Source of the DNA: Bacilli bacterium
Lineage (GTDB): Bacteria; Bacillota_I; Bacilli_A; RFN20; CAG-826
DNA length: 51,983 nt
Assembly: GCA_045615545.1 (NCBI GenBank)
Contig: JAZLFA010000041.1
Coordinates: 1 to 51,983, forward strand
Direction of reading: 5' to 3'
Shown here: positions 1,530 through 17,550 of the stretch, in pieces
Numbering within the stretch: position 1 is the first letter of the stretch
How the letters are laid out: each line of letters begins with the position of its first letter
Position numbers and translations under genes: made by a program
Notes under the pieces: generated by a model
The model's input: the letters and a program-made list of their open reading frames with translations, nothing else
The model's database searches: none
What the model was told of the DNA's origin: nothing

Positions 1530-2399
1530 ATGGCTAGTTTATTAGAGATTACTAACTTAAATAAAAAATACCCATCTTTCTCATTAAAGAATGTTTCTTT
1601 TTCAGTGAAGCCAGGACAAATTATGGGCTTTATTGGAAGAAATGGAGCGGGCAAAACTACAACCTTAAAAAGCATTATGAATCTAGTTCATTATGATAGT
1701 GGATTAATTACTGCTTTTGATAAAGATATGAATCAATACGAACTAGAAAATAAACAACGTATTGGCTTTTCGCTCAGTGAGCTTAATTATTATCCGAATA
1801 AAACTATTCGAACATTATTTAATGTTACTAAGAGATTTTACACTAATTTTAGTGAAGAAAAGTTTTTTGAAATGTGTCGAATATTTAATTTAGATATTGA
1901 TAAAAAAATAGAAGAACTTTCCAGTGGCATGAAAGTTAAGTTCTCGGTGGCAATTGCGTTATCTCATAATGCGGAATTATTAATACTTGATGAACCAACT
2001 AGTGGACTAGATCCGGTAAGTAGAGACGAAGTCTTAGATATTTTTAAAAATATTGTTAAAGATGGAAAAAGGGCAATATTATTTTCTACCCATATTACTA
2101 GCGACTTAGATAAATGCGCGAGCGATGTTACTTATATACATAACGGAGAGATTTTATTTACTGAAAGTAAAGAAAAGTTTGTTAATTCGTATTTTTATGT
2201 AAAAGATAAAAGTAAAAATCAAACACTATTAAATGAATATATTTCATATAAAGAAGACACCAATTACATTGAAGGATTAATATTAGCGGATAAAAAAGAT
2301 TTGTTTAAAGGAAAAGATATAACTTTATCAAGGCCTGATTTAGAACAAATAATGATTTTCTTAGAAAGGAGCAAGAATAATGAAAGCTTTAATTTTTAA
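1530..2399 (+). CDS. ABC transporter ATP-binding protein (DrrA/YtrB-like)
   Basis: Walker A GRNGAGKTT, LSSGM signature, LILDEPTSGLD, STH switch. Confidence 0.95.
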   Translation: MASLLEITNLNKKYPSFSLKNVSFSVKPGQIMGFIGRNGAGKTTTLKSIMNLVHYDSGLITAFDKDMNQYELENKQRIGFSLSELNYYPNKTIRTLFNVTKRFYTNFSEEKFFEMCRIFNLDIDKKIEELSSGMKVKFSVAIALSHNAELLILDEPTSGLDPVSRDEVLDIFKNIVKDGKRAILFSTHITSDLDKCASDVTYIHNGEILFTESKEKFVNSYFYVKDKSKNQTLLNEYISYKEDTNYIEGLILADKKDLFKGKDITLSRPDLEQIMIFLERSKNNESFNF

Positions 2400-3069
2400 A
2401 GAATTTAAACTTGCAATGCATCCACTTATTTATGTATTCGTTCTTCTTTTTCCTTTTATGATTCTTATCCCAAATTATCCTGTGTGTATCAACTTTATTT
2501 ATATATTAGCTGGCTATCCAATATTGTTTCTAGGGGCGAATAAAGGTCAACAAAGTAATGATTTACTTTATTCCACCCTTTTACCGGTAAGGAAAAAAGA
2601 TATTGTTTTAGCTAGATTAATTACCGTTACTATTATTCAAGTAGTATCAATTACCTTATGTTCTTGCTTAGTTCCTTTATCCCAATTAATTAAGTCAAAC
2701 ATAGTGTCTCAAGACGGAACTGGTGCTGTTGCACCTGGATTAACACTTGATGGTTATTTGTCAATAATTGGTATTATCTTAACTGGTTTTGCTTTATCAG
2801 ATTTAATTTTCTTTCCGATTTATTATAAAAAGGGAAAATCAATTGTATTTTCGAGCACAATGGCAATCCTATTTTTCTCTATTTATATTGTTATTTTTAC
2901 TGTCTTGCCTGCTGTGATTAGTGGTTTTGAGTGGTATGTAAATTTTATGTGCTTTAGTGGAATTGGAAATCAAATTATTGTTTTTAGTGCTGGTTTACTT
3001 TTATACATTGGTATTCATTATCTTGTTTATAGAATTTCTTCAAAAAGACTAGAGAAAGTTGATTTCTAA
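2380..3069 (+). CDS. ABC-2 transporter permease
   Basis: About 6 TM, LPVRKKDIVLAR motif, overlaps the ATPase gene. Confidence 0.85.
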   Translation: MKALIFKEFKLAMHPLIYVFVLLFPFMILIPNYPVCINFIYILAGYPILFLGANKGQQSNDLLYSTLLPVRKKDIVLARLITVTIIQVVSITLCSCLVPLSQLIKSNIVSQDGTGAVAPGLTLDGYLSIIGIILTGFALSDLIFFPIYYKKGKSIVFSSTMAILFFSIYIVIFTVLPAVISGFEWYVNFMCFSGIGNQIIVFSAGLLLYIGIHYLVYRISSKRLEKVDF

Positions 3070-3074
3070 TTTTT

Positions 3075-3710
3075 ATGATTGAATTAAGCGAAATTAAAAA
3101 ACGTATAGATAATTTACCACCTAACAGTAAAACAAAAGATTTAGACGAAATAATAAAATCATATTATAGGTTAAAAGAACCAGTTAATTTTGACCCCTTA
3201 TTATTAAAAGAAAACGTTTGGCTTGCTAAAGCTTTCTTTTTTATTAACGCTCATTATATTAAAGACCCAAATAAGATGCTTGATTTCATTGATACATATA
3301 AAAGTGTTTTCTATTATTGGTATTCAACAGATTCGATTATCAAACTTGTTTCTAAAGCTGATCCAAACTTAATTTTTAAATATGCAACAAGTTATGTTAA
3401 ATCAAAAGAAACATACACCAGACGTTGGGGATACGTGATGTTTATGTTTCATAATGAGAGAAAAAATGGAGAATTTGTAAATAAATTTCTTACTTTATTT
3501 AAAGAAGATGAAGAAGAGACTATACAAAATGCAGAAGCTTGGTTACTTTGTGAGTTTGCCGTTTTTAATCCTTTAGTTATCTATAATTTTCTTATTAAAA
3601 AAACACTTGGATATAAAATTACTTCTCGCGCAATTTCTAAAATTCATGATTCATTTAGAATTAGTGATGAGTGGAAAAATAAGTTCAAACAAATTCGCGA
3701 AACGTTTTAA
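3075..3710 (+). CDS. DNA alkylation repair protein (AlkD/HEAT-like family)
   Basis: WYSTD, YTRRWGYV, IQNAEAWLL and AISKIHDSFRISDEWK motifs of the AlkD-like family. Confidence 0.75.
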   Translation: MIELSEIKKRIDNLPPNSKTKDLDEIIKSYYRLKEPVNFDPLLLKENVWLAKAFFFINAHYIKDPNKMLDFIDTYKSVFYYWYSTDSIIKLVSKADPNLIFKYATSYVKSKETYTRRWGYVMFMFHNERKNGEFVNKFLTLFKEDEEETIQNAEAWLLCEFAVFNPLVIYNFLIKKTLGYKITSRAISKIHDSFRISDEWKNKFKQIRETF

Positions 3711-3712
3711 TT

Positions 3713-4678
3713 ATGGGATATGTATTTTTAATTGTATCAACACTAAGTTGGGGGATTGCTGAAATCTTTTATAAGAAGGGTAATTTATCTAACGAAAAAT
3801 ATTCACATTTAAAAACAACAATGTTTGTGGGTTTATTCATGGGTATATACGCTACAATCATTTTGTTTACCCAAGGAATTGATCTAAAATCTTTCCCTTT
3901 AAATTTTGTTTATTATTTGCCAGTTGCGTTATGTTACATCTTATCGATGGTGTGTTCTTATTTTGGTGTACGTTACGTTGAAGAATCGATTTCTGATCCA
4001 ATTGAAAATAGTTCGATTGCCATTGTCCCAATTTTATGCGCAATAATATTAAAAGAAAAATTTTCTCTTCCTGCTGGAATTGGGATTGCCATTGTAGTTG
4101 TGGGTGTTATTTGTTTAGGTATCTTTGATAAAAAAGGAAACGAAGATCGAATATCTAAATATGGTAAAAAGTTGGCAATTATTGCAATTGCAATGCCTTT
4201 TTGTTACATGCTACTTGATAGTGTTGGAACATTTTTAGATATCTACTATGTTGATAATGTTAATACAACTGTTTTAGTTAATGTCACCGAGACCAATATT
4301 GAACACACCGCTAACTGCGCTTACGAATTTACGTTCTTATTAGTCGCGATTGGTATATTTGTTTTCTTAAAAATCAATAAAGTAAAAATATTTTCAATAG
4401 AGTCTAATGATTATTCCTCATTAAAATGGTATCAAAAAATATTAACTCAGAAATGGAAACTATTAGCCGCTTTATTTGAAACGGTTGGACAAGCAACATA
4501 TTTATTCGCACTTTCAAGTGGGCAAGGAGTAGCCGCTGTTATTTTAGGAGCCGGAACAGTTATTGTTTCTTTAGTTCTTTCACGTATTTTCTTAAAAGAA
4601 AAATTATCGATTGTTCAATATCTATTTATTGCTATTATTTTAGCGGGAATTATTACTATTTCTGTTTCAGGAGTATAG
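3713..4678 (+). CDS. EamA/DMT family transporter
   Basis: About 10 TM in two repeats, each ending in (F/I)LKEK. Confidence 0.8.
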   Translation: MGYVFLIVSTLSWGIAEIFYKKGNLSNEKYSHLKTTMFVGLFMGIYATIILFTQGIDLKSFPLNFVYYLPVALCYILSMVCSYFGVRYVEESISDPIENSSIAIVPILCAIILKEKFSLPAGIGIAIVVVGVICLGIFDKKGNEDRISKYGKKLAIIAIAMPFCYMLLDSVGTFLDIYYVDNVNTTVLVNVTETNIEHTANCAYEFTFLLVAIGIFVFLKINKVKIFSIESNDYSSLKWYQKILTQKWKLLAALFETVGQATYLFALSSGQGVAAVILGAGTVIVSLVLSRIFLKEKLSIVQYLFIAIILAGIITISVSGV

Positions 4679-4757
4679 ATTAATTAATTTATCATTTTAA
4701 TAAATAGCAAAGTTTATTATAATAAAAAGGCAATATTTAAGAAAAGAGGTATTATTT

Positions 4758-5315
4758 ATGGCAATTGAAGCAGGCGATTTTAAAACAGGTTTAACCGTCA
4801 TGGTCGATGGTGATCCATGGGTTGTTCTTGATTTTATGCACGTAAAACCAGGTAAAGGTGCTGCTATTTTAAAAACAAAAATGAAGAACCTTAAAACTGG
4901 TTCAACACAAGAAAGAAATTTCAACGCTTCTACAAAATTTGAAGCCGCTGAAATCATTAAAAAGAATGTTCAATATTCTTATAGCGCTGGTGATACATAT
5001 TACTTCATGGATATGGAAACATTTGAACAATATGAATTAGATGAAGAACATATTGGCTTTAATAAGTATTTCCTTGTTGAAGGAAATGAAGCCACTGTTA
5101 TCTTCTTTAAAGGTGAAGTTCTTGATATTTCAGTTCCTGAAAAAGTTGAACTGGAAATTGTTGAAACAACTCCAGCTGTTAAAGGCGCTAGCAATACTGC
5201 AACTAAAGATGCAGTTACTAACACTGGTTTAAAACTTCGTGTTCCAATGTTTATCGAAGAAGGCGAAAAGATTATTGTCTTTACTGCTGATGGTAAATAT
5301 TCTTCTAGAGCTTAA
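4758..5315 (+). CDS. efp: Elongation factor P (Lys-type, KPGKG loop)
   Basis: HVKPGKG loop, KNLKTG, YFMDMETFEQ, VPMFIEEGE, C-terminal YSSRA. Confidence 0.97.
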   Translation: MAIEAGDFKTGLTVMVDGDPWVVLDFMHVKPGKGAAILKTKMKNLKTGSTQERNFNASTKFEAAEIIKKNVQYSYSAGDTYYFMDMETFEQYELDEEHIGFNKYFLVEGNEATVIFFKGEVLDISVPEKVELEIVETTPAVKGASNTATKDAVTNTGLKLRVPMFIEEGEKIIVFTADGKYSSRA

Positions 5316-5326
5316 TTAGGAGTTTA

Positions 5327-6070
5327 ATGAATAAACTTGCTCTTATAACAGGTGGCGCCAAAGGTATTGGTGCTGCTATAGCTAACGAACTTGCTGCTAA
5401 TCATTACGATATTGCGATTAATTATCTAACATCTGAAAAATTAGCTAATGAGTTAAAACAAACATTAACATCAAGATATGGTGTTAATGTTTTCACTTAT
5501 AAGTGCGATGTTAGTGATCCTAAACAAGTTGATGAAATGATTACATATTTAGAAAATAATCATGGTGGTGTTGATATATTGATTAATAACGCCGCTGTTG
5601 ATTTATCAAATATGTGGCATGAAAAAGATATTGAAGCTTTTAAAAGAACATTAGATGTTAATGTTATTGGCGCGTATAACGTCTCTCGTAGAGTATATAA
5701 ATATATGTTAGAGAAAAGGTGGGGAAGAATTGTTAATATCAGTTCTACCAATGGAATTAATACATATTATCCAATGTCTCTTGAATATGACGCATCTAAA
5801 GCAGCATTAATTTCATTAACGCATAATCTCGCTATTGAATTTGCACCTTACATTAATGTTAACGCAATTGCCCCAGGTTTTATTGGGACGGAATCAGAGT
5901 TAGATGGTTATAATGAAGAATTCTTAAAGAGTGAACAAGAAAAAATTCTTCTGGGACGATATGGGAAACCAGAAGAAGTTGCTAAACTAGTGAAATTCCT
6001 AGTTAGTGATGAAGCGAGTTATGTTAATAACTCAGTAATAAGAATTGATGGAGGCCAATACGGAAGTTAG
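5327..6070 (+). CDS. SDR family NAD(P)-dependent oxidoreductase, FabG/YmfI-like
   Basis: TGGAKGIG, NNA, SS, YxxxK (YDASK), VNAIAPG, IDGG; starts 11 nt after the efp stop, with AGGAG SD. Confidence 0.9.
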   Translation: MNKLALITGGAKGIGAAIANELAANHYDIAINYLTSEKLANELKQTLTSRYGVNVFTYKCDVSDPKQVDEMITYLENNHGGVDILINNAAVDLSNMWHEKDIEAFKRTLDVNVIGAYNVSRRVYKYMLEKRWGRIVNISSTNGINTYYPMSLEYDASKAALISLTHNLAIEFAPYINVNAIAPGFIGTESELDGYNEEFLKSEQEKILLGRYGKPEEVAKLVKFLVSDEASYVNNSVIRIDGGQYGS

Positions 6071-7323
6071 GCTTCCTTTTTTAATTTTGATAAGGCCAAT
6101 AAGATTCCTAATTTACCATATTCCTTACTTAGTCCACCTTGCATGTATAAAGTGTATGGTTCAATTACAGGTGCATCAGCACTTAATTCTATTGTGGATC
6201 CTTGTGTAAATGCTCCTGCTGCCATTACTTCGTCAAATGGATATCCTGGCATTGGTGCAGGTAAAACAGTTACATATGAATCTATTGGAGAAGATTCTTG
6301 AATTCCTTGTGCGAATTTCACAAGGTTTTCTTTTGTTTTTAAGTTTACGGTTTGAATAATATCAGTTCTAAATTCATTATATTTAGGGCTAACACCATCA
6401 TAGCCTAATTTTTCTAAACAGTACGCAGCAAAAACTGCTGTTTTAAGCGCATTACTAACAGCGGAAGGTGCCATAAATATTCCTTTATAAAAGGAATTAA
6501 GTTGATTAAAGTTTGCTCCTTGCTCTTTTCCGATTCCAGGAGCGGTGAGTCTTTCCGCTACCATATGGACAAGATTTTTATCTCCTGCAATATATCCGCC
6601 TGTAGAAGCAATACCCCCACCAAGATTTTTCATTAATGATCCAACTACTATGTTAGCGCCTACATGTCCCGGTTCTTTAGTTTCAACTAATTCTCCGTAA
6701 CAGTTATCGACCATAATAATGACATCTTGATTTACTTTTCTAATCTCTTTAATGACATTTTCAATTTGATTTATAGTAAGTGATTTACGTGATGAGTATC
6801 CTCTTGAACGTTGAATTTCAACCAATTTAACATCATTTCTACTTAATCTATCTCTGATAGTGGATATATCAAAGTCATTATTTAATAAATCGATTTGTTC
6901 ATATTTAATACCTAAACATTTTAATGATTGTGATGAACTACCAGATAAACCAATCATTTCTTGCAAAGAATCATATGGTTTTCCTGTAATAGATATCATC
7001 GTATCCCCGTGTTTAAGTAAAGCGGTAAAAGCGATATATAAAGCATTCGTGCCACTCATAATTTGAGGTCTAACTAATGCGTCCTCAGTTCCTAATGTAT
7101 AAGCAAAAATTGCTTCAAGCTTATCTCTACCTGAATCATAGTTACCATAACCATTAATATCCGCAAAATCGGTATATGATACCTTATTTAAAATAAATGC
7201 ACTTAAAATACGATTAGAATTAATTAAAGCCACTTCATCAATACTTTTATATATTGAATCAAGTTCTTTATCTGATTCTTTTAATAAATCTAGTAATTTT
7301 TTATCAATTTGTTCTAATACCAT
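6067..7323 (-). CDS. ynbB: YnbB / methionine gamma-lyase-like (aluminium resistance family) PLP enzyme
   Basis: GYGNYDSGRD, LVRPQIMSGT, IQRSRGY, VDNCYGE, GSLMKNLGGG, AAGAFTQGSTIELSADAP, YMQGGL. Confidence 0.9.
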   Translation of the reverse strand: MVLEQIDKKLLDLLKESDKELDSIYKSIDEVALINSNRILSAFILNKVSYTDFADINGYGNYDSGRDKLEAIFAYTLGTEDALVRPQIMSGTNALYIAFTALLKHGDTMISITGKPYDSLQEMIGLSGSSSQSLKCLGIKYEQIDLLNNDFDISTIRDRLSRNDVKLVEIQRSRGYSSRKSLTINQIENVIKEIRKVNQDVIIMVDNCYGELVETKEPGHVGANIVVGSLMKNLGGGIASTGGYIAGDKNLVHMVAERLTAPGIGKEQGANFNQLNSFYKGIFMAPSAVSNALKTAVFAAYCLEKLGYDGVSPKYNEFRTDIIQTVNLKTKENLVKFAQGIQESSPIDSYVTVLPAPMPGYPFDEVMAAGAFTQGSTIELSADAPVIEPYTLYMQGGLSKEYGKLGILLALSKLKKEA

Positions 7324-7412
7324 ATTTATTCGCTATATAGAATAACATTAATAAGAATTGTTTCAAACAATTTATAAATAATGTATGATTATCCTTAGGA
7401 GAAAAAATTTTT

Positions 7413-9302
7413 ATGAAAAAAGTTAGAATACAAGACGATTTATTCACATATGTAAATGGTGAATGGATTGAACAGGCTACTATTCCAAGCGATCGTCCAT
7501 CTGCTGGTGGATTTGCAGATTTAGAAAAGGAAGTAGAAGAATTGATGCTTAATGAATTTAAAGTAATGGCTAAAACAGGCGAATGCCCTAACGAACATTT
7601 AGCAAGAGCAATAACTTTATTTAAATTAGGCGCCAATATCAAAAGTAGAAATAAACAAGGTATTAAACCTGTACTTAAAAATTTAAGCAGAATTGAAAAA
7701 CTAAATGATATTAAATCATTTAATAGAGTACTTAAAGACTTTGTCTTAGATGGAATTGCATTACCTTTTGATTTATCAGTTAATCCTGATATGAAAGATA
7801 CAAAGCATTATTTAATTTACATTGGTGGACCAAGAACGATTCTTCCTGATGTTACTTATTATAAAAACGAACAACAAAAACAAGCGATACTTGGATTATG
7901 GAAGAATATGGCTACGATGGTAATGGCTTATTCTCCACTTACTAAAGAAGAACAAGCTAAATATATCGAAGATACGATTAAATTTGATGCAATTATCGCT
8001 ACATTAGTCAAATCAAGTCAAGAGTGGAGCGAATATACAAAACTGTATAACCCTACTTCAACTAGAAGAGTTGCTTCATTAGTTAAGCCAATTAAATTTA
8101 GAAGATTACTATCAAAATTAGTTGATGAAGTTCCTGAAACAATTTCTGTAGCGGATGTTAGATTCTTAAAGGGATTCAAAACATTATTTAATGAAGAAAA
8201 CTTCTTATTGTATAAGCATTGGGCTTATGTAAATGAAATTATTTCTGCCACTCAATACTTAAGTGAAGAACTTAGAAATATTGGTGGTATTTATTCCCGT
8301 GCGTTAACGGGTGTAGCTGAAATGAGCAAACCTGATTTATTTGCTTATAATTTAGCAAGTAATTTCTATAGTGAACCAATTGGTATATATTATGGTAAAA
8401 AATATTTTGGTGAAGAAGCCAAAAAAGACGTCGTTGATATGGTTAAAGGAATTATTGAGACATACAAAAAACGTATGAATGAAAATGATTTCTTGCTTCC
8501 TGAAACGAAAGAAAAAGCCATTTTAAAATTATCTAAAATGGAAATAAAAATGGGCTATCCAGATGCATGTGACAAATTCTATGATAAATTAGTATTTAAA
8601 GGTAATAACCTTTATAGTGCAGTTTGCGAACTAGTTAGAATTAAGAAAATGGAAGAATTTTCGCTTTTAAGTAAGGATGTTGATCATAAGAAGTGGGCGA
8701 TGCCTGGACATATGGTTAATGCTTGTTATAATCCAATGAGTAACGATATCACTTTCCCAGCTGCAATCTTACAAGCTCCATTTTATTCAATCAAACAAAG
8801 TAGAAGCCAAAATTTAGGTGGTATTGGTGCAGTTATTGGTCATGAAATTTCTCATGCTTTTGATAATAACGGCGCAAACTGTGATGAGAATGGTAATTTA
8901 CACAATTGGTGGGGTAAACAAGATAATAAAGCCTTTAAAACGAAAACCAAATTAATGATTAAAGAATTTGAAGGTATTACTTTGCCATTTGGACAAGTGA
9001 ATGCTGAATTAATTGTTAGTGAAAATATCGCAGATAATGGCGGTATGGCTGTTACTCTTGATATGATGTCTAACTTAAAAGATGCCAATTATGAAGAATA
9101 TTTCATCAATTGGGCAAAAGTTTGGAGAATGAAAGCTAAACCAGAATATCAACAATTATTGCTTCAAGTTGATGTTCACGCTCCTAATATTTTAAGAGCA
9201 AATATGGGGCCAAGAAACTTTGTTGAATGGTACGATACTTATAAAGTAACCAGTAAAGATAAAATGTATATTGCTCCAAATAAACGAGTAGTGATTTGGT
9301 AA
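7413..9302 (+). CDS. pepO: M13 family (neprilysin-like) endopeptidase
   Basis: RIQDDLFTYVNGEW, VNACY, FPAAILQAPF, HEISH zinc motif, ENIADNGG, DVHAP..LRAN. Confidence 0.93.
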   Translation: MKKVRIQDDLFTYVNGEWIEQATIPSDRPSAGGFADLEKEVEELMLNEFKVMAKTGECPNEHLARAITLFKLGANIKSRNKQGIKPVLKNLSRIEKLNDIKSFNRVLKDFVLDGIALPFDLSVNPDMKDTKHYLIYIGGPRTILPDVTYYKNEQQKQAILGLWKNMATMVMAYSPLTKEEQAKYIEDTIKFDAIIATLVKSSQEWSEYTKLYNPTSTRRVASLVKPIKFRRLLSKLVDEVPETISVADVRFLKGFKTLFNEENFLLYKHWAYVNEIISATQYLSEELRNIGGIYSRALTGVAEMSKPDLFAYNLASNFYSEPIGIYYGKKYFGEEAKKDVVDMVKGIIETYKKRMNENDFLLPETKEKAILKLSKMEIKMGYPDACDKFYDKLVFKGNNLYSAVCELVRIKKMEEFSLLSKDVDHKKWAMPGHMVNACYNPMSNDITFPAAILQAPFYSIKQSRSQNLGGIGAVIGHEISHAFDNNGANCDENGNLHNWWGKQDNKAFKTKTKLMIKEFEGITLPFGQVNAELIVSENIADNGGMAVTLDMMSNLKDANYEEYFINWAKVWRMKAKPEYQQLLLQVDVHAPNILRANMGPRNFVEWYDTYKVTSKDKMYIAPNKRVVIW

Positions 9303-9308
9303 ATAATT

Positions 9309-9335
9309 AACGTGGCACTCTGTGTCACGTTTTTT
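9309..9335 (+). terminator. Rho-independent terminator
   Basis: AACGTGGCAC-tct-GTGTCACGTT plus T run. Confidence 0.8.
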
Positions 9336-9395
9336 ATATTGCGCAAGAAAATATCAATTTTTATTTTATGTAAAAAATGATATAATCAACCAGGT

Positions 9396-10250
9396 ATGGA
9401 AAATATAGGTTGGGTAATTTTAGTTACATTTATTGCTGGCGTTATTGGCACTGGTATAGGTGGCCTTATTGGTGTCTTATTTAAGAAAAATAGTGCTAAA
9501 TGTGTTTCACTTTTACTTAGTTTTGCTGCCGGTATTATGCTTGCAGTAGTGTGCTTTGATTTACTAACAGAATCCATTAAACCTTATCAACAAGATAAAG
9601 GCAACTGGTATTACATATTGATAGTGGTAGCGTGTGTTATTGCTGGCTTTATTATTGTATATTTTGTTAATCATTTGATTGATAAAAGGTTATCAAAAGA
9701 AGTTCCTCATACTTCAAAAGATCATATAAAACTACACGATGACTTAGATGAAATGATTCACCTTGATCACGTTGAAGTTCATAAAATAAATAAAACAAAA
9801 CTATTTGCAGCAGGACTTGTTACCGCGACTGTTATTGCATTACACAATCTTCCTGAAGGAATGGTCATAGGTTCAACTTACGCAATCAATCCAAGTCAAA
9901 TTATTGGTGGTAGTGGTTTTGTTATTGCTATTGTTATTGCCTTACATAATATACCTGAAGGTATGGCTGTTAGTGTCCCTTTAGTAAGCGGCGGCACAAA
10001 AAGATGGAAGGCGGTATTAATTACTGCCGCTACTGGCATTCCAACTGTTATTGGCGCAATTATTGGTTTTAGTATTGGATATGTCGGCCCAATGGGTCTT
10101 GCAATAAGTTTAGCTTTTGCTAGTGGTGCGATGCTTTATGTTGTGTTTGCGGAATTACTCCCGGAAGCTTTCTTAATGTGGAAGAGTAAATTACCTGCAT
10201 TAGTTTTATTAGCAGGAATGTTATTGGGCTTTGTGATTGTTTTAATATAA
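9396..10250 (+). CDS. ZIP (ZupT/GufA) family metal transporter
   Basis: FAAGIML, His-rich loop, HNLPEG and HNIPEG motifs, ASGAMLYVV..ELLPE. Confidence 0.92.
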   Translation: MENIGWVILVTFIAGVIGTGIGGLIGVLFKKNSAKCVSLLLSFAAGIMLAVVCFDLLTESIKPYQQDKGNWYYILIVVACVIAGFIIVYFVNHLIDKRLSKEVPHTSKDHIKLHDDLDEMIHLDHVEVHKINKTKLFAAGLVTATVIALHNLPEGMVIGSTYAINPSQIIGGSGFVIAIVIALHNIPEGMAVSVPLVSGGTKRWKAVLITAATGIPTVIGAIIGFSIGYVGPMGLAISLAFASGAMLYVVFAELLPEAFLMWKSKLPALVLLAGMLLGFVIVLI

Positions 10251-10287
10251 TTGGGTATTAATTACCAGTATATTAGGCGGTGATAAT

Positions 10288-11271
10288 ATGATAGAAATTA
10301 AAAACTTAACTAAAGAATTTAAAAAACCAATCCGAGGAGAAGGTTTTTTTGGGATGTTTAAGTCCTTATTTTCACGTAAATATGAAGTTACTACTGCAGT
10401 TAATCATATCAATTTAACAATTCCTGATGGACAAATTGTTGGATATATCGGTTCTAACGGAGCAGGAAAATCAACAACAATCAAAATGATGTGTGGAATA
10501 TTAACTCCTAGCGAAGGCGATGTAATAATTAATGGTTTAAGCCCCGTTAAAAAAAGAAAATCAATCGCTAATGAGATTGGTGTAGTTTTTGGGCAAAAAA
10601 CACAATTGTGGTGGGACATACCATTAATTGAAACATTTAAAGTTTTAAAAGAAATTTATCAAGTTAGTGATGAAGATTATAAAAATCGAATGGAATTTTT
10701 AACTGATTTATTAGATCTAAAACCATTTATGCATCAACCAGTTAGAACTCTTTCTTTGGGACAACGTATGCGTGGAGATTTAGCTGCAGCTATGTTACAT
10801 AATCCAAAAATTTTATTTTTGGATGAGCCAACAATAGGGCTTGATATTTTAGTTAAAACTAAAATGCGTGATGCAATCAAGACGATGAATAAAAAATATG
10901 GAACAACTGTTATATTAACCACTCACGATATGGAAGATATTTCTGACTTATGTTCAAGAATTGTAATGATTGAAAAAGGAAACATTATTTACGATGGTTC
11001 AATTAAAGATATCAAGAAAAAGTTTGGTGATTTAAGAACGATCACAATCCCATACACAGGTGAAATAGAAAATATTGTCTTAGATACGTTTGATTTTAGA
11101 GTCAGCTATGAACATGTTGATGAAAATTTACTTATTAAATTTGATGGTGAACAAATTGAACTTGAAAAAGTAGTGGATTATACCTTTCACACCTTAAAAG
11201 CAAAAGAAATGAATATTAAAGAGATATCTCTTGAAGATGTTGTTAAACAAATAATGGAAACCGATGATTAA
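10288..11271 (+). CDS. ABC transporter ATP-binding protein
   Basis: GSNGAGKST, VFGQKTQLWWD, LSLGQRMR, LFLDEPTIGLD, TTHD. Confidence 0.95.
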   Translation: MIEIKNLTKEFKKPIRGEGFFGMFKSLFSRKYEVTTAVNHINLTIPDGQIVGYIGSNGAGKSTTIKMMCGILTPSEGDVIINGLSPVKKRKSIANEIGVVFGQKTQLWWDIPLIETFKVLKEIYQVSDEDYKNRMEFLTDLLDLKPFMHQPVRTLSLGQRMRGDLAAAMLHNPKILFLDEPTIGLDILVKTKMRDAIKTMNKKYGTTVILTTHDMEDISDLCSRIVMIEKGNIIYDGSIKDIKKKFGDLRTITIPYTGEIENIVLDTFDFRVSYEHVDENLLIKFDGEQIELEKVVDYTFHTLKAKEMNIKEISLEDVVKQIMETDD

Positions 11272-12983: not shown

Positions 12984-13769
12984 AATATATTTTATATATT
13001 CTTGCTGTGAGGTATTTGCTAACTCTCGCATTTGGCTAATACATTTTTCGTGTAAATATTCTTTATTAGCACTTATACTTTCTCCTGGAAGTGGATAGAT
13101 AGGTTTACCTATTCTAATAACTTGTCGAGGAGTTTTTCTAAATTTACGTTTTTTCCATACTGTTACCATCGGAATAACAGGTGCGTACATCATGCTTGGG
13201 TATATAAAACTATTATTTGGGAAAGGTCTAATTTTTGTATAATATGGCCATATATGAGCTTCAGGATATATTAAAATTGCTTGATGTTTCTTTTTTACAT
13301 ACCACTCAATGGCGTCCATCATATTATGGAAATTATCGCGATCTTCTTTTTCTGGTAAAGGAATGTATCCTAACGCGCGGCATATGTTACGAACGATCGG
13401 CATTGATAAAGTATCGCTATAACCAATGATGTTAATACGCTTTCCAAAACTAATAAGCGATTGATATTTTAATACATCGGATATGGCAACGTGGTTAGCG
13501 TAAATAAAGCCACCTTCCTTTTTAATTTTCTTGTAGTGGCGGCGATTTTCTACTCTTATTCCATGTAAATAGCAATAAGTTGCTAAAATTGGGATAGCAA
13601 TTACGTGATATAAAATTCCGGAAAAGAAATTATTTATGGGATTAGTTCTTTTGTATTTATAGTTTTTAGGAACGCCTGGACGTTTTAATCCGAGTTCATC
13701 AAAATCATCATGGAGTTCGTCTTTCCAATAAATAGTTTTGCTTTTTTTCCATTCGTTATGCTTTGCCAT
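12969..13769 (-). CDS. Lysophospholipid/PlsC-family acyltransferase
   Basis: NHxxxxD (NHVAISD), IYPEAH, PVIP, IGKPIYP motifs. Confidence 0.85.
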   Translation of the reverse strand: MAKHNEWKKSKTIYWKDELHDDFDELGLKRPGVPKNYKYKRTNPINNFFSGILYHVIAIPILATYCYLHGIRVENRRHYKKIKKEGGFIYANHVAISDVLKYQSLISFGKRINIIGYSDTLSMPIVRNICRALGYIPLPEKEDRDNFHNMMDAIEWYVKKKHQAILIYPEAHIWPYYTKIRPFPNNSFIYPSMMYAPVIPMVTVWKKRKFRKTPRQVIRIGKPIYPLPGESISANKEYLHEKCISQMRELANTSQQEYIKYIKKED

Positions 13770-13771
13770 GA

Positions 13772-15067
13772 TTATTTAATGTTTTCGTGAGTAATGTTTC
13801 CGCTATGATCGACTGGTTGCCATGTTCTTCTTTTGCTAGGTTTAAATAAACCAACAAGAAATGCGTAAAGAATAAAAACGAAAAATAGCCAGTAGTTAGT
13901 GCATGTCCATACCGCAGTAGGGAAGTTAAACTTCAATTTTTTATTATCTTTAATAATAACTGCTAAAGCAATAAGGAAGAATGTCACGTATAAGATTGCG
14001 AATGAAATGAATGCTTGTCCAACAAAGTTTCCCGTAAATTCACTTTTATCAATGAGTGATAATAGTGATAACACAAATGATATTAAGAATAATAAGAAGT
14101 TAGATATCGTATAAAAAACAAAAGGATAAATTCCTAAATTAAATTCAAATTTAGCCCAGAATCTTTGCCTATCTGTCGTGCTATGATAGTCAATTTCAGG
14201 GTGAGTTTTAAATTCTTTTCTTTTTTCAAAATAACCCCAAATCCATCTTATCATTTGACGATGACTGCTTTTCCATGTTCCACCTTGTTCATCATAAAAC
14301 TCAATAAGTGGGTAATAACGCATATTAACATCGTGATAATAACACCATGTAGTAAGCTGAATATCTTCAGTCATCCCTGTAAATATCCATCCTCCTGCAT
14401 CATCAATAATTTCTCTATTAACAAAAAAACCAGTTCCGCATATCGTTGATTTCTTAAATAAATTTGTTCTCATTCTCGCGGTAAATGTATACATGTACGA
14501 GAAAAATATTGCGCTTATACAGGTAAGTGTATTCTCGCTCGCATTCGTATAATTCCTATATCCCATTCCAACTTGGACACCAGTTTGCCTTAAGTTGTTC
14601 ATTGTTTCGATATATTTAGGTGAAGCAACATTATCTGCATCAAAAATCATATACGCATCATAAACAAGATTATTTTCCTTAAAGTGATTAATAAGTTCTT
14701 GAATTGCAAAACCTTTTGTTCTTCTATTTTCTAAATTTTTTCTTACAAAATAGTGATAACCAAAACTGCGACAAATGATAGTAGTTGGATCATCTTCGCT
14801 TTCTACGATAACCCAAACATCAAAATAATTTGGATCGTATGTTTGTTTTTTCATACTAGATAATGAATTTTTAATTACTCTAGCTTCATTTCTAGCGGGA
14901 ATGATTATGGCAAACTTTGTTTTATTATCACTATGTGGTATCGGTTTTACTTTCTTCCCTGAAATTATTAATCCTGCAACATAGTACCAACCAACAATTA
15001 ACATAACAAAAAAGATTATGGCGACTGTGGTATTAATAACATTAAGCATTAATTGGTAATCAATCAT
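13772..15067 (-). CDS. Family 2 glycosyltransferase (processive type, membrane bound)
   Basis: IPARNE, KG, FDAD, TED and QxxRW (QMIRW) motifs; N- and C-terminal TM segments. Confidence 0.9.
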   Translation of the reverse strand: MIDYQLMLNVINTTVAIIFFVMLIVGWYYVAGLIISGKKVKPIPHSDNKTKFAIIIPARNEARVIKNSLSSMKKQTYDPNYFDVWVIVESEDDPTTIICRSFGYHYFVRKNLENRRTKGFAIQELINHFKENNLVYDAYMIFDADNVASPKYIETMNNLRQTGVQVGMGYRNYTNASENTLTCISAIFFSYMYTFTARMRTNLFKKSTICGTGFFVNREIIDDAGGWIFTGMTEDIQLTTWCYYHDVNMRYYPLIEFYDEQGGTWKSSHRQMIRWIWGYFEKRKEFKTHPEIDYHSTTDRQRFWAKFEFNLGIYPFVFYTISNFLLFLISFVLSLLSLIDKSEFTGNFVGQAFISFAILYVTFFLIALAVIIKDNKKLKFNFPTAVWTCTNYWLFFVFILYAFLVGLFKPSKRRTWQPVDHSGNITHENIK

Positions 15068-15140
15068 CTTTTATATTTTGCTTAATCTTACTTGTTTTAT
15101 CAAGATAAAAAAAGAATAATAATATTAGGAGGACTACAAA

Positions 15141-15680
15141 ATGAATTTAAAAGGTAGTAAAACAGAACAAAATTTATTAACCGCTTTTGCAGGTGAATCT
15201 CAAGCTAGAAATAAATACACTTATTTTGCAAGCAAAGCTAAAAAAGAAGGGTATGAGCAAATTGCCGCTATCTTCTTAGAAACAGCAGATAATGAAAAAG
15301 AACACGCTAAATTATGGTTTAAATATTTAAACGGTGGCGAAGTTCCTTCAACTATTGAAAATCTTAAAGCAGCTGCAAGTGGTGAAAACTATGAATGGAC
15401 TGAAATGTATAAAGAATTTGCTGAAGTTGCTAAAGAAGAAGGTTTTTTAGAAATTGCGGCTAAATTTGAATTAGTAGCTAAGATCGAAGCTGAACATGAA
15501 AAGCGTTATCTAAAATTATTAGATAATGTTCAAGGTGGAAAGGTTTTTATTGCTCCAGATGTTCAAGTTTGGAAATGCCGTAACTGTGGACATATTGTTG
15601 TTGGTAAGTGCGCTCCTGAAGTGTGCCCAACATGCAACCATCCAAAAGCATATTTTGAATTAAGAGCACAAAATTATTAA
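15141..15680 (+). CDS. rbr: Rubrerythrin
   Basis: [20 protein letters not shown] diiron motifs; C-terminal CRNCGH...CPTC rubredoxin site. Confidence 0.96.
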
Positions 15681-15690
15681 TCTAAAAATT

Positions 15691-15726
15691 AAGCCATTAC
15701 TAAAAAAATAGTGGTGGCTTTTTTTT
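15691..15726 (+). terminator. Rho-independent terminator
   Basis: AAGCCATTACTA...TAGTGGTGGCTT plus T run. Confidence 0.8.
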
Positions 15727-15772
15727 ATTTTCTTGATTTTTTAACTCGTATTATGGATAATATATAAGCACT

Positions 15773-15848
15773 GGACCATTGGTGTAGCGGTTAACATGTC
15801 TCCCTGTCACGGAGAAGACCACGGGTTCGATTCCCGTATGGTCCGCCA
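15773..15848 (+). tRNA. tRNA-Asp (GTC)
   Basis: Acceptor GGACCAT/ATGGTCC, anticodon arm TCTCC-CTGTCAC-GGAGA, T loop TTCGATT, G73, encoded CCA. Confidence 0.97.
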
Positions 15849-15891
15849 TTTCTATATCTAGCAAAATAAAAACTAGGTATATGTGTTATTT

Positions 15892-15967
15892 GGCCCGGTA
15901 GCTCAGCTGGTAGAGCAATGGACTGAAAATCCATGTGTCGCCGGATCGTCCCCGGCCTGGGCCACCA
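15892..15967 (+). tRNA. tRNA-Phe (GAA), atypical T loop
   Basis: Acceptor GGCCCGG/CTGGGCC, anticodon arm ATGGA-CTGAAAA-TCCAT, T arm GCCGG-ATCGTCC-CCGGC, encoded CCA. Confidence 0.95.
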
Positions 15968-15974
15968 TTAATAT

Positions 15975-16002
15975 AAAGCTTGATTGAGGTCAGGCCTTTT
16001 TT
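15975..16002 (+). terminator. Terminator of tRNA pair
   Basis: GCTTGA...TCAGGC hairpin followed by T6. Confidence 0.65.
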
Positions 16003-16090
16003 ATATAAAATTTAGGAAACGAGTGGGAATCCTGGGTAATTCAATTGCCGAGTAGTTCACTATAATGAATAAGTTAGGAGATAAAAACTT

Positions 16091-17041
16091 ATGGTAAAAA
16101 TTCGACATTATTTTATTACATTAGGCATTTTACTTGCTCTTCTTGTTGTTGGTGCTTGTTTAGATCTAAATTGTAGTGAAGTATTATTTAACGCTAATTC
16201 AAATTTTACCAGCGCGATATGTGCTAGTAATTATATGTTAATTATTTATTTCTTCCTATGTTTCTTGGGGTTAACGTTATTTCTAATAACGATTCCTAAA
16301 AATCGTGGGTGGTTAACATGGGGTCCATTTGTTATTGGAATACTTTTATTAGGCCTTTCTATTTATGAATACTTTAAAGATTTAATGGAATTTGGTGGAT
16401 CTAAATACTTTAATGGCACTTTTGAAAATAATATTTATGGCGAAGTGGGTATGTGGATTCATAACTTAGTTATCTTTGTTGCATTGGCTGTTTGTGTATA
16501 TTTGGCCTATCATTTCGTTTTCAAAAAATGCGATCAACAAAAAGTATTTACCGCCACTAAAATTATGGTTGTTATGTTTGTGTTAGAACTTGGCTTGTCC
16601 GTTGTCATTAAATATATTTGGTCTAGACCAAGACCATGGTATGTTTTTAGTGGACTTGATGGTTTAAAACCAGAAGAAATCTTTAGATATGTCTACCAAC
16701 CTCAACCATTTGCGTGCTTAAAGACTACTGGAGTTGTGCAATCTTCTTGGGTCAAATCTTTCCCTAGTGGACATACTGGTAGAGCTACAACTACATTTGC
16801 TAGCTTAATTGTTTTGGCTACTGTCTTCCCTAAATTTGATAATCGTTTTACTAGAACTTTGTTACTATATTTTGCAACGTTCTTCGCAATTTTTGTTGGA
16901 TTCTTAAGAGTGTTAGGTGGCGCTCATTTTTTAAGCGATGTTATGTTTGGGGCAATAATATCAATTACTGTTTGTTATTTTGTTCCTAAATTCTTAGAAA
17001 GCAAAAAGAAAATAGTATTTACAGATTCTAACAAAGAATAA
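16091..17041 (+). CDS. PAP2 family membrane phosphatase
   Basis: KxxxxRPRP, SFPSGH and RVLGGAHFLSD motifs; multiple TM segments. Confidence 0.9.
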   Translation: MVKIRHYFITLGILLALLVVGACLDLNCSEVLFNANSNFTSAICASNYMLIIYFFLCFLGLTLFLITIPKNRGWLTWGPFVIGILLLGLSIYEYFKDLMEFGGSKYFNGTFENNIYGEVGMWIHNLVIFVALAVCVYLAYHFVFKKCDQQKVFTATKIMVVMFVLELGLSVVIKYIWSRPRPWYVFSGLDGLKPEEIFRYVYQPQPFACLKTTGVVQSSWVKSFPSGHTGRATTTFASLIVLATVFPKFDNRFTRTLLLYFATFFAIFVGFLRVLGGAHFLSDVMFGAIISITVCYFVPKFLESKKKIVFTDSNKE

Positions 17042-17119
17042 CTATATTAATTGATTAATAAAAAGTACGGAATTATTATCAAAACGTGCCTTTAATTTTA
17101 AAAATTTTTAATTTTTCTC

Positions 17120-17147
17120 TTGCAATAATATTTTATGGTGGTATAAC
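17120..17147 (+). promoter_or_regulatory. sigma-A-type promoter with extended -10
   Basis: TTGCAA-N16-TATAAC with TG at the extended -10 position. Confidence 0.7.
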
Positions 17148-17217
17148 TATTAGCAATTAAAGAGTAAATCACCTCTTCGTTTCGTCCGAAATGACGTAAA
17201 ACTAGAGGAGGATTAAT

Positions 17218-17463
17218 ATGATTAACTCAATTGAAATGCCAGTAAGATTAGTAAATAACACCTATTACTCCTTGAGCATCGTAGGTGCTGGTAAAAAAAG
17301 TGACACCGATGGAATCTACAATTCCCGTCAACAAGCGGAAAAAGTAATGTACAAAATGGTGAAAAAACTTGGTACCAAAATCGTTACTACTTACGAAGAT
17401 CATCACGATAAAACATACATCTGTGATAATAATGTCAGCTTCTATATTCAAAGATATTGCTAG
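17218..17463 (+). CDS. Small hypothetical protein (81 aa)
   Basis: GAGGAGG SD, own promoter and terminator, many C-ending TAC/AAC/ATC codons. Confidence 0.8.
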   Translation: MINSIEMPVRLVNNTYYSLSIVGAGKKSDTDGIYNSRQQAEKVMYKMVKKLGTKIVTTYEDHHDKTYICDNNVSFYIQRYC

Positions 17464-17486
17464 TTGGCATTAGCAAAACCAAAACT

Positions 17487-17511: not shown

Positions 17512-17550
17512 GTTTAACTAATATTTAAATAATATTATTATTATATTTGT

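What the first reader, a model, noticed from the sequence alone, without database searches (positions are those of the whole stretch)
4758..7323. efp clustered with YmfI-like SDR and YnbB: candidate self-contained EF-P lysine-modification locus
Seen: a Lys-type efp (KPGKG) is followed after 11 nt by an SDR gene, which converges on a YnbB-family PLP enzyme with a 4-nt stop overlap. Established: in Bacillus subtilis EF-P Lys32 carries 5-aminopentanol. The FabG paralog YmfI performs the final reduction and ynbB was genetically implicated, but those genes are not adjacent to efp there and the chemistry is unresolved. Inference: finding both families next to efp is gene-neighbourhood support for the pathway in a reduced genome. 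The SDR substrate loop (SSTNGINTYYPMSLEYDASK) differs from what I recall for FabG and YmfI, so the modification could be a variant.
Basis: partly seen in the sequence, partly recalled or inferred. Interest (0 to 1): 0.8.

Follow-up and report, generated by a model that had tools for sequence, protein, structure and literature searches.

The report
Portable EF-P gene with modification enzymes
This small gut bacterium carries an extra, horizontally acquired copy of translation factor EF-P packaged with two enzymes that most likely decorate its key lysine, giving a compact natural system for working out a still-unsolved protein modification.

Summary

The linkage is not chance. SDR sits beside ynbB in 31 of 32 genomes of one family. 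efp-SDR-ynbB clusters occur in all 20 two-efp genomes examined and in 10 of 80 named loci.

The module is a second efp. The genome's native efp, on another contig, has a non-canonical NKTAMRK loop without the tip lysine. All 40 sampled family relatives have only that copy and no YnbB. In trees the window's efp and SDR fall among Erysipelotrichaceae-type modules, so the cassette arrived by horizontal transfer.

The SDR is neither YmfI nor FabG. It belongs to its own clade of 78 ynbB-adjacent SDRs with a distinctive substrate loop.

No GsaB was found in 53 module genomes. This genome also lacks FabF, FabH and a stand-alone ACP. The B. subtilis pathway therefore cannot run here as drawn.

Best reading (0.7): YnbB and the SDR modify Lys33 of the co-encoded EF-P, and the product is unknown. 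This is a new variant of a known kind. No expression or modification data exist for this module.

The parts
3713..4678 (+). EamA-family membrane transporter, 79 nt upstream of efp on the same strand. It is a candidate accessory part of the transferred block. Its role is unknown.
   Evidence: Pfam EamA 79.9 bits. The block EamA-efp-SDR-ynbB is shared with named locus L148 at 72/85/76/79% protein identity, while the flanks differ. EamA-like genes also adjoin the module in L051 and L156. In most relatives a PnuC-like transporter holds this position.
4758..5315 (+). Module efp: a canonical Lys-type elongation factor P and the second efp of this genome.
   Evidence: TIGR00038 222.8 bits, cut-off 185.8. 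In the efp tree it lies in a clade of 19 module efps with SH-aLRT 100, nearest to family f11 modules. A ribosome-binding site AAGAGG lies upstream.
4845..4859 (+). Codons for the loop K30-P31-G32-K33-G34. K33 (4854-4856) is the presumed modification site, equivalent to B. subtilis K32.
   Evidence: H28, V29, K30, P31, G32, K33 and G34 are invariant in 50 module and f14 EF-Ps. Equivalence to K32 is an inference from alignment and from the literature.
5327..6070 (+). YnbB-associated SDR, a classical short-chain dehydrogenase/reductase and the presumed carbonyl reductase of the pathway.
   Evidence: adh_short_C2 187 bits. It is below every NCBIfam cut-off: FabG TIGR01830 204 of 297.75, YmfI 164 of 238. 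It belongs to a clade of 78 ynbB-adjacent SDRs with SH-aLRT 98. The motifs TGGAKGIG, NNAA and S...YDASK are present, and the clade loop consensus is STNgi.tYYP.s.DYDASK.
6062..6076 (+). Small hairpin followed by a T-run, placed over the convergent stop codons. It may terminate the efp-SDR transcript.
   Evidence: a 6-bp stem with 3 G-C pairs. The region holds 7 terminator-like sites against 2.6 expected. This is a weak consensus match only.
6067..7323 (-). YnbB-family PLP-dependent enzyme (PF06838), the presumed first enzyme acting on EF-P K33.
   Evidence: PF06838 515.7 bits. The best solved relative is 3hvy, 'YNBB B.subtilis ortholog', at 405 bits. D206, C208, Y209, S229 and K232 are invariant in 60 sequences. 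Reading K232 (codon 6628-6630) as the PLP-binding lysine is an inference from the fold-type-I S-x-x-K motif.

Best explanation
The window holds a compact, horizontally acquired EF-P cassette. It comprises a canonical Lys-type EF-P, a dedicated SDR co-transcribed with it, and a convergent YnbB-family PLP enzyme, probably together with the upstream EamA transporter.

Proposed mechanism:
- YnbB uses PLP chemistry to build or attach a carbonyl-bearing side chain on the epsilon-amine of K33 at the tip of the EF-P KOW loop.
- The SDR then reduces that carbonyl to a hydroxyl with NAD(P)H. This is the step YmfI performs in B. subtilis, done here by a non-orthologous SDR.
- The modified EF-P works beside the genome's native EF-P, whose loop (NKTAMRK) lacks the tip lysine and could not be a substrate.

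Shown here: gene identities, conserved linkage, two efp copies, horizontal origin, failure to find GsaB or YmfI across the module genomes, and failure to find FASII genes in this genome.

Inferred: that YnbB and the SDR act on EF-P, the order of the steps, the cofactor, and the nature of the product.
For: (1) Linkage.
- efp-SDR tandem with ynbB within 6 kb occurs in 20 of 20 two-efp genomes. One further genome (G343) has efp-SDR adjacent with ynbB on another contig.
- SDR lies within 600 nt of ynbB in 31 of 32 YnbB-bearing f14 genomes.
- efp+SDR+ynbB occurs in 10 of 80 named loci and SDR+ynbB in about 27 of 80.
- Linkage survives changes of gene order and orientation: convergent in f11 and f29, co-directional with overlapping ORFs in f2 and f14.

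(2) All 78 ynbB-adjacent SDRs form one clade (SH-aLRT 98), apart from 15 FabGs and 2 YmfIs.

(3) Phyletic dependence.
- All 51 genomes with a full-length YnbB (over 500 bits) carry an HVKPGKG-coding efp.
- None of the 182 motif-negative genomes scored has YnbB.
- In f11 the 10 of 38 motif-positive genomes are exactly the 10 YnbB-positive ones, and in f29 the 3 of 10 likewise.

(4) The module efp is always the KPGKG copy. The other copy in f1, f2, f11 and f29 has Met or Arg at the tip position.

(5) In B. subtilis, ynbB is required for Lys32 modification and an SDR (YmfI) performs the final carbonyl reduction (Witzky 2018, passages read).

(6) Complementary distribution. YmfI is over its cut-off in 0 of 53 module genomes. 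In 2 of 2 Staphylococcus genomes YmfI is present and ynbB stands alone.

(7) The catalytic motifs of both enzymes are intact.
Against: - No experiment or expression datum exists for this module. No RNA run holds it.
- The SDR fails the YmfI and FabG membership cut-offs, so its substrate is inferred from context only.
- GsaB, required in B. subtilis, was not found, so the known pathway cannot be transferred as it stands.
- YnbB often occurs without an adjacent efp: 24 of 32 f14 genomes, and the Clostridia and Staphylococcus loci. The SDR-YnbB pair is therefore the tighter unit and could in principle have another substrate.
- 166 of 217 genomes with KPGKG efp lack YnbB.
- Related genomes are not independent samples, and physical linkage by itself produces co-occurrence in the families with patchy distribution.
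- Only two YmfI references, both Staphylococcus, were available for the tree.
Confidence: 0.7

Rival explanations
1. The pathway is the same as in B. subtilis and ends in 5-aminopentanol. The SDR is a functional YmfI substitute. The amination attributed to GsaB is done by YnbB itself or by an unrelated aminotransferase, and the precursor is imported rather than made by fatty-acid synthesis. This is a sub-case of the best explanation that fixes the product.
For: YnbB here is a close family member: PF06838 515.7 bits, and 405 bits to the PDB entry named as the B. subtilis YnbB ortholog. An SDR is present for the reduction step. In B. subtilis, changing fabF, fabG or accB did not alter the EF-P modification state (Witzky 2018 passage), so FASII may not be needed there either.
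Against: hemL/gsaB is over its cut-off in 0 of 53 module genomes, and only 5 of 53 have any class-III aminotransferase match at E<=1e-10. YaaO-family (PF01276) and DUF436 were not found in this genome. That DUF436 is the YwlG family is recalled, not tested. The SDR substrate loop differs from YmfI.
Confidence: 0.3
2. SDR and YnbB form a small-molecule metabolic pair unrelated to EF-P, for example gamma-lyase chemistry on a sulfur amino acid followed by reduction of the 2-oxoacid. Their position next to efp reflects hitch-hiking on one mobile block.
For: The Pfam family is named Met_gamma_lyase, and weak matches to Cys/Met-metabolism PLP enzymes exist. SDR-ynbB pairs usually lie away from efp in f14 (24 of 32). 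ynbB stands alone in Clostridia and Staphylococcus loci.
Against: ynbB is genetically required for EF-P Lys32 modification in B. subtilis. YnbB was found only in genomes with a KPGKG efp: 51 of 51, against 0 of 182 without it. efp linkage recurs in several arrangements and lineages. In every two-efp genome the module holds the Lys-type copy.
Confidence: 0.12
3. The SDR is the genome's FabG (3-oxoacyl-ACP reductase) serving lipid synthesis, as some databases name its homologues.
For: The best NCBIfam matches are FabG models (207 and 204 bits). JGI names two homologues 3-oxoacyl-ACP reductase.
Against: It is below all FabG cut-offs (222 and 297.75), whereas true FabGs score 340-359 bits. It is outside the FabG clade. 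No fabF or fabH was found, and no stand-alone ACP over its cut-off, in a 95%-complete genome.
Confidence: 0.02
4. The second efp is an artefact: contig C41 is mis-binned from another organism, such as an Erysipelotrichaceae relative, into this assembly.
For: The genome is a 70-contig assembly with 1.46% estimated contamination. The module is most similar to modules of other families.
Against: The same contig carries genes collinear with same-genus relatives at 66-73% nucleotide identity, at window positions 1550-2850, 10274-11015 and about 13000-27700. G+C is uniform at 0.28-0.36. Two-efp genomes with the same layout include single-contig genomes such as G148, G262 and G408.
Confidence: 0.03

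Closest known systems
B. subtilis EF-P 5-aminopentanolylation pathway (YnbB, GsaB, YmfI; Witzky et al. 2018, Hummels et al. 2017)
   Same: The EF-P is Lys-type with a KPGKG loop. A bona fide YnbB-family PLP enzyme is present. An SDR is available for a carbonyl-to-hydroxyl reduction.
   Different: Here the genes are clustered with efp, whereas in B. subtilis they are described as dispersed (the ynbAB operon). The SDR is not a YmfI orthologue. GsaB was not found, nor the YaaO family or DUF436 (its identity with YwlG is recalled). This genome shows no FASII. The module is a second, mobile efp copy.
Horizontally transferred efp operons with their modifiers (efp-earP, efp-epmAB; Lassak 2015; Brewer & Wagner 2024)
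   Same: A modified EF-P subtype travels together with its cognate modification enzymes as one gene block (passages read).
   Different: The enzymes here are a PLP enzyme plus an SDR, not EarP or EpmAB. Brewer & Wagner state that transferred efp seldom coexists with the native copy. Here it coexists in all 20 two-efp genomes. No paper found by my searches describes such an operon for the YnbB type.
FabG (3-oxoacyl-ACP reductase) and YmfI (EF-P 5-aminopentanone reductase)
   Same: All are classical SDRs of about 245 aa with the Gly-rich motif, NNAx and the Ser/Tyr/Lys catalytic residues.
   Different: The module SDR forms a separate clade. It is below both families' curated cut-offs. Its substrate loop has a one-residue insertion and an aromatic-rich signature STNGINTYYP.
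PDB 3hvy / 3gwp / 3ht4 / 3fd0 / 3jzl: structural-genomics 'aluminum resistance / cystathionine beta-lyase family, YnbB orthologue' proteins
   Same: Full-length similarity at 368-405 bits.
   Different: None of these entries carries a biochemical function in its name. They give the fold, not the reaction.

Membership tests
Elongation factor P (TIGR00038) | Score over the curated equivalog cut-off, with three domains (KOW, OB, C-terminal) | tested here: met
   222.8 bits against 185.8. EFP_N, EFP and Elong-fact-P_C are all matched.
Lys-type modifiable EF-P | Lysine at the tip of the beta3-beta4 loop (KPGKG) | tested here: met
   The loop is HVKPGKGAA with K33. It is invariant in 50 related EF-Ps.
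YnbB family (PF06838) | Full-length profile match and conserved PLP-enzyme motifs | tested here: met
   515.7 bits over positions 3-404 of 405. 405 bits to 3hvy, 'YNBB B.subtilis ortholog'. D206, S229 and K232 are invariant in 60 sequences.
YnbB family (PF06838) | Required for EF-P lysine modification | not testable with these tools
   Known only for B. subtilis. It needs genetics or mass spectrometry in a module-bearing system.
YmfI (NF047420, EF-P 5-aminopentanone reductase) | Score over the equivalog cut-off of 238 bits | tested here: not met
   164 bits. 0 of 53 module genomes exceed the cut-off. Staphylococcus YmfI scores 281 bits.
YmfI (NF047420, EF-P 5-aminopentanone reductase) | Groups with YmfI in an SDR tree | tested here: not met
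   The module SDRs form their own clade (SH-aLRT 98). The two YmfI sequences lie on a separate long branch. Only two Staphylococcus references were used and no B. subtilis sequence was available.
FabG (TIGR01830) | Score over the cut-off of 297.75 bits, in a genome with FASII genes | tested here: not met
   204 bits. fabF and fabH were not found, and ACP is below its cut-off. True FabGs score 340-359 bits.
Classical SDR superfamily | TGxxxGxG cofactor motif, NNAx, and catalytic Ser...YxxxK | tested here: met
   TGGAKGIG, NNAA and SS...YDASK are present in the sequence. PF00106 scores 171.5 bits.
B. subtilis-type 5-aminopentanolylation system | Presence of YnbB, GsaB and YmfI together | tested here: not met
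   YnbB is present. hemL/gsaB has no match in this genome and is over its cut-off in 0 of 53 module genomes. YmfI is not met.
Co-transferred efp-plus-modifier operon | efp phylogeny discordant with the host, a native copy elsewhere, and modifier genes adjacent | tested here: met
   efp tree. The native copy is on C3 among ispG and plsY. None of 40 family relatives has YnbB or the KPGKG motif. The rest of the contig is collinear with genus relatives.

The most novel reading that the evidence does not exclude
The cassette is a complete, portable, two-enzyme EF-P modification system. Its product is not 5-aminopentanol, because no GsaB is available to install the terminal amine and no FASII is available to supply the chain. 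The precursor or a cofactor would be brought in by the co-encoded transporter: EamA here, a PnuC-like protein in 19 of 30 related loci. The cassette would supply a modifiable Lys-type EF-P to lineages whose native EF-P has lost the tip lysine. That would make it a fourth chemically distinct bacterial EF-P modification and the first one shown to need only a PLP enzyme and an SDR.
Probability: 0.3. Interest if true: 0.82.

Novelty: new variant of a known kind. Interest (0 to 1): 0.68.

Why it matters
The chemistry of the Firmicute EF-P lysine modification is still unresolved. Reviews from 2026 still list only the genes YnbB, GsaB and YmfI. In B. subtilis those genes are dispersed, and their paralogy with FabG and HemL blurs homology-based prediction.

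This cassette is independent genomic evidence that YnbB and an SDR work on EF-P. It shows that the conserved core is two enzymes rather than three. It also shows that neither GsaB nor fatty-acid synthesis is needed in these organisms.

It offers a three-gene or four-gene unit that can be expressed heterologously and read out by mass spectrometry, which makes the open question directly testable.

It also documents stable coexistence of a transferred, modifiable EF-P with a native EF-P of non-canonical loop type in gut Erysipelotrichaceae-like and small-genome Bacilli. This bears on how translation factors and their modifiers move between genomes.

Tried and rejected
- Complex prediction. The job was a YnbB dimer with 2 PLP plus EF-P residues 1-66, using my own alignments A2 and A3. 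Verdict: no answer (score 0.30, mark 0.32), and the controls were not folded. I do not use it either way.
- The look-up of sequencing runs. No RNA holder was listed. Three DNA runs from gut metagenomes held small shares (0.10-0.14). I did not lay them and draw no conclusion on expression or habitat.
- The search of earlier findings.
- Hummels et al. 2017 (PMC5630506) is not held. What I say about YmfI rests on passages of Witzky 2018 and two 2026 reviews.
Witzky's Tables S3-S5 and Fig. 6 (phyletic distribution), and the supplements of Brewer & Wagner, could hold neighbourhood data I could not see. The statement that the cluster is not in print rests only on two searches and on passages read.
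- The phylum-wide search for true YmfI gave none. One match reached 238.9 bits, but it is a FabG (TIGR01830 347 bits). I took YmfI references from two Staphylococcus genomes reached through the search for related loci. B. subtilis YmfI itself could not be included.
- I tried to define insertion boundaries by nucleotide comparison with three same-genus genomes. Collinearity is lost over window positions of about 3070-10270, so no exact boundary or integration site could be named. No repeats or mobility genes were sought at the edges.
- G+C profile: no compositional signal of transfer.
- Promoter scan: fewer sites than in shuffles, so it is uninformative.
- FabG reading of the SDR: rejected (see rivals). 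Mis-binning of the contig: rejected.
- Counts rest on samples. The class sample was 401 genomes, of which 399 were scored (G184 and G398 were not scored). I defined 'true YnbB' as the 51 full-length matches of 502-600 bits. The other 44 genomes with matches of 43 bits or less were treated as other PLP enzymes.
- In the SDR tree I used every second one of the 25 FabG-like loci (13 of 25), and only SDRs lying within 300 nt of an efp or ynbB ORF.
Full report
WHAT IS THERE

- efp lies at 4758-5315 (+) and encodes 185 aa.
- An SDR lies at 5327-6070 (+) and encodes 247 aa.
- A convergent gene lies at 6067-7323 (-) and encodes 418 aa.

The 11-nt efp-SDR spacer carries a GGAG ribosome-binding site. 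The two convergent stop codons share the 4 nt TTAG. A small hairpin with a T-run (6062-6076) sits on that junction.

Pfam and NCBIfam identify the first gene as a bona fide EF-P: TIGR00038 scores 222.8 bits against a cut-off of 185.8. Its loop is HVKPGKGAA, so the tip lysine is K33.

The third gene is a full-length PF06838 (YnbB family) protein at 515.7 bits. Its best solved relative is PDB 3hvy, deposited as 'YNBB B.subtilis ortholog', at 405 bits. The motif residues D206, S229 and K232 are invariant in 60 family members.

The middle gene is a classical SDR with intact TGGAKGIG, NNAA and S...YDASK motifs. It reaches no curated NCBIfam cut-off:
- FabG subfamily model: 207 bits against 222.
- TIGR01830: 204 bits against 297.75.
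- YmfI equivalog: 164 bits against 238.

THE GENOME HAS TWO efp GENES

The assembly (G000) is 1.226 Mb in 70 contigs and is estimated 95% complete. It holds a second efp on contig C3.

That copy scores 205.5 bits on TIGR00038 and is not EfpL. It lies between housekeeping genes, including ispG and plsY. Its loop reads IMLNKTAMRKMVAKVK. Aligned to KPGKG, the tip lysine is replaced by Met, followed by Arg.

The three same-genus genomes each have a single efp with the same NKTAMRKMVAKVK loop core. One of two other f1 genomes checked (G019) has a near-identical loop, NKTAMRKMVVKLK, and the other (G020) reads NKTAMAKMKVKVK. In the efp tree the C3 copy sits with these family relatives (SH-aLRT 99). 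The window's copy sits in a clade of 19 'module' efps (SH-aLRT 100), nearest to modules of family f11.

All 40 sampled genomes of the window's own family have one efp. None has a full-length YnbB, and none has an HVKPGKG-coding motif. No SDR orthologue was found in the 24 same-family genomes of the 40 relatives searched. The only two orthologues in that search were in another family of the same order.

The contig is not mis-binned. Outside about 3070-10270 it is collinear with same-genus genomes at 66-73% nucleotide identity. The cassette is therefore an acquired second efp.

THE LINKAGE IS CONSERVED AND WIDE

In a class-level sample, 399 genomes were scored. Of these, 51 have a full-length YnbB of 502-600 bits, and the next best match is 43 bits.

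I searched these 51 plus two same-order genomes for efp and for SDRs and fetched most of the loci.
- Twenty genomes have two efp genes. In all 20 one copy is followed directly by the SDR, and ynbB lies within 0.8-6 kb. The most common layout is the convergent one seen in the window.
- A further genome (G343) has efp-SDR adjacent and ynbB on another contig.
- In family f14, which has a single KPGKG-type efp, the SDR lies within 600 nt of ynbB in 31 of 32 YnbB-bearing genomes. efp lies within 3 kb in 8 of 32.

Among 80 named public loci retrieved with a YnbB alignment:
- 10 carry efp+SDR+ynbB. They are labelled Bacilli, Erysipelotrichaceae, Bulleidia, Catenibacterium, Anaeroplasmataceae and Christensenella.
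- About 27 carry SDR+ynbB. They are labelled Bacilli, Tenericutes or Mollicutes.
- About 42 carry ynbB alone. These are mostly Clostridia-labelled MAGs, two Staphylococcus and Huintestinicola.

Some of these loci are the same genomes as my G handles, so the two sets are not additive.

The window's proteins compare with other modules as follows.

| Compared with | efp identity | SDR identity | YnbB identity |
|---|---|---|---|
| Family f11 and f29 modules | 69-80% | 59-70% | 70-77% |
| Same-order family f2 modules | 56-58% | 50-55% | 48% |
| Locus L148 (MAG labelled Bacilli bacterium) | 85% | 76% | 79% |

L148 also shares the upstream EamA gene at 72%, while its flanks differ from the window's.

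THE SDR IS ITS OWN FAMILY

Reference sequences were classified with NCBIfam.
- Two Staphylococcus YmfI sequences score 281 bits on the YmfI model.
- Two Staphylococcus FabG sequences and three FabGs from this phylum score 340-359 bits on TIGR01830.
- Module SDRs score 192-224 bits on TIGR01830 and 160-177 bits on the YmfI model.

In a 98-sequence tree, all 78 SDRs that adjoin ynbB or efp form one clade (SH-aLRT 98). They are separate from 15 FabGs, from two YmfIs on a long branch, and from three other staphylococcal SDRs.

The clade has a signature substrate loop, STNgi.tYYP.s.DYDASK. It is one residue longer than the FabG loop (SV.G..GN.GQ.NY.A.K) and unlike the YmfI loop (SIWGETGASME.IYSAMK).

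Public databases name its close homologues 'SDR family oxidoreductase' or '3-oxoacyl-ACP reductase'. More than 120 homologues at 74-81% identity were listed.

YmfI is over its cut-off in 0 of 53 module genomes. Where YmfI exists (Staphylococcus), ynbB stands alone. The distribution is complementary, as expected for non-orthologous enzymes doing the same job.

WHAT IS MISSING

- hemL/gsaB has no match in this genome. It is over its cut-off in 0 of 53 module genomes, and only 5 of 53 have any match at E<=1e-10. Both Staphylococcus genomes have two copies.
- fabF and fabH were not found.
- The only ACP-like match is 43.6 bits, below the cut-off of 70.45, and lies inside a 676-aa frame.
- The YaaO family (PF01276) and DUF436 were not found. 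That DUF436 is the YwlG family is recalled.
- The assembly is 95% complete, so absence is not proven for this one genome. The GsaB result, however, holds across 53 genomes.

The B. subtilis scheme has YnbB taking a fatty-acid-synthesis intermediate from ACP, GsaB adding the amine and YmfI reducing the ketone (Witzky 2018 passage). That scheme cannot operate here as drawn. The same paper reports that changing fabF, fabG or accB had no effect on the EF-P modification state, which agrees with FASII independence.

PHYLETIC TEST

I searched the same class sample for DNA encoding HVKPGKG.
- 217 of 401 genomes have the motif, and the reversed control pattern gave no hits.
- All 51 YnbB genomes have it.
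- None of the 182 motif-negative genomes that were scored has YnbB.
- In f11 the 10 of 38 motif-positive genomes are exactly the 10 YnbB-positive ones. The same holds in f29 (3 of 10).
- The converse does not hold: 166 motif-positive genomes lack YnbB.

YnbB thus depends on a Lys-type EF-P, but not the other way round. Two caveats apply. Relatives are not independent samples. In the families with patchy distribution, the co-occurrence follows from physical linkage.

A TRANSPORTER TRAVELS WITH THE MODULE

In 19 of 30 module loci, a membrane protein of about 407 aa with a PnuC/NMN-transporter domain (PF04973, 87.6 bits) adjoins the module. In 17 of those it lies 54-122 nt upstream of efp on the same strand.

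In the window and in L148, an EamA-family transporter takes that place. EamA-like genes also adjoin the module in L051 and L156.

Whether the transporter supplies a precursor or a vitamin (B6 for YnbB, or a nicotinamide compound for the SDR) is speculation.

HOW IT MOST LIKELY WORKS (inference)

- YnbB, with PLP, assembles a carbonyl-bearing chain on the epsilon-amine of K33 of the co-encoded EF-P.
- The SDR reduces the carbonyl to a hydroxyl. It is probably NADPH-dependent, judging from the Lys in TGGAKGIG, which is inferred from SDR classification rules that I recall.
- The product extends the loop tip toward the peptidyl-transferase centre, as other EF-P modifications do.
- The native NKTAMRK-loop EF-P cannot be a substrate, which explains why the enzymes travel with their own efp.
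- The product may be 5-aminopentanol made by a shorter route, or a different compound that lacks the terminal amine. I cannot decide this from sequence.

COMPARISON WITH WHAT IS KNOWN, AND NOVELTY

Co-transfer of efp with EarP or EpmAB as one operon is established (passages). Brewer & Wagner also report that a transferred efp seldom coexists with the native copy.

For the YnbB type, the ten papers that mention both ynbB and efp and the 24 that mention 5-aminopentanol and EF-P are listed by title. In the passages I read none describes an efp-SDR-ynbB cluster, a GsaB-free version, or a YnbB-specific SDR clade.

I therefore rate this a new variant of a known kind. But the SDR is not YmfI-like by descent, the locus is an acquired second efp, and the known pathway is incomplete here.

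LIMITS

- There are no expression data. No RNA holder was listed.
- There is no experimental test of this module.
- The complex prediction gave no verdict.
- Only two YmfI references were used, and SDR trees are hard to root.
- Both trees used the quick method, with SH-aLRT support only.
- Insertion boundaries are undefined.

Noticed in passing
G000 contig C3, L240:4864-5421 (+); also L057-L064, L067-L070, L072, L074-L075 and L118-L122: The native EF-P of this family, and of families f2, f11 and f29, has a non-canonical loop (NKTAMRKM, NKTAMRQM, NKTARAAA or NKSARGQM). It lacks the Pro-Gly of KPGKG and has Met or Arg where the modifiable Lys should be. It still scores as EF-P (TIGR00038 205-239 bits) and not as EfpL. 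It may be an undescribed EF-P loop type.
   Followed up: partly
L037:1239-2462 and 18 other module loci: A membrane protein of about 407 aa with a C-terminal PnuC/NMN-transporter domain (PF04973) and an unassigned N-terminal half of about 200 aa. In 17 loci it lies 54-122 nt upstream of the module efp on the same strand. tblastn did not find it in G000.
   Followed up: partly
L158-L174 and other Clostridia-labelled loci, e.g. L182:7432-8697: In Clostridia-labelled MAGs, ynbB has no adjacent SDR or efp. In 20 loci it is next to an HI0933-like FAD-dependent oxidoreductase (PF03486, 292 bits), often with spo0A and a UPF0029 gene nearby. This could be a different redox partner or plain conserved synteny.
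   Followed up: no
G000 contig C57:554-763 (-), L117: The only acyl-carrier-like match in the genome is 43.6 bits, below its cut-off, and lies inside a 676-aa open frame. It is probably a carrier domain of a larger protein rather than AcpP.
   Followed up: no
window 3070-10270: This stretch holds a DNA-alkylation-repair-like gene, EamA, the efp module, a PepO-like M13 endopeptidase (7413-9302) and a ZIP transporter (9396-10250). It has no nucleotide-level counterpart in three same-genus genomes, although both sides of it do. It is a variable island larger than the four-gene block shared with L148.
   Followed up: partly
L152 (record labelled Bacteroidaceae bacterium) versus L151 (Bacillota bacterium): The two loci carry nearly identical modules and flanks. 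The Bacteroidaceae label on L152 is probably a binning or labelling error rather than transfer to Bacteroidota.
   Followed up: no
G142, G258 (f16) and G302, G393 (f31): L065, L066, L071, L073: In these genomes both efp copies have a Lys-type loop (three read KPGKG; G258 reads MKPGKGN). Module acquisition is therefore not restricted to hosts whose native EF-P lacks the tip lysine.
   Followed up: no
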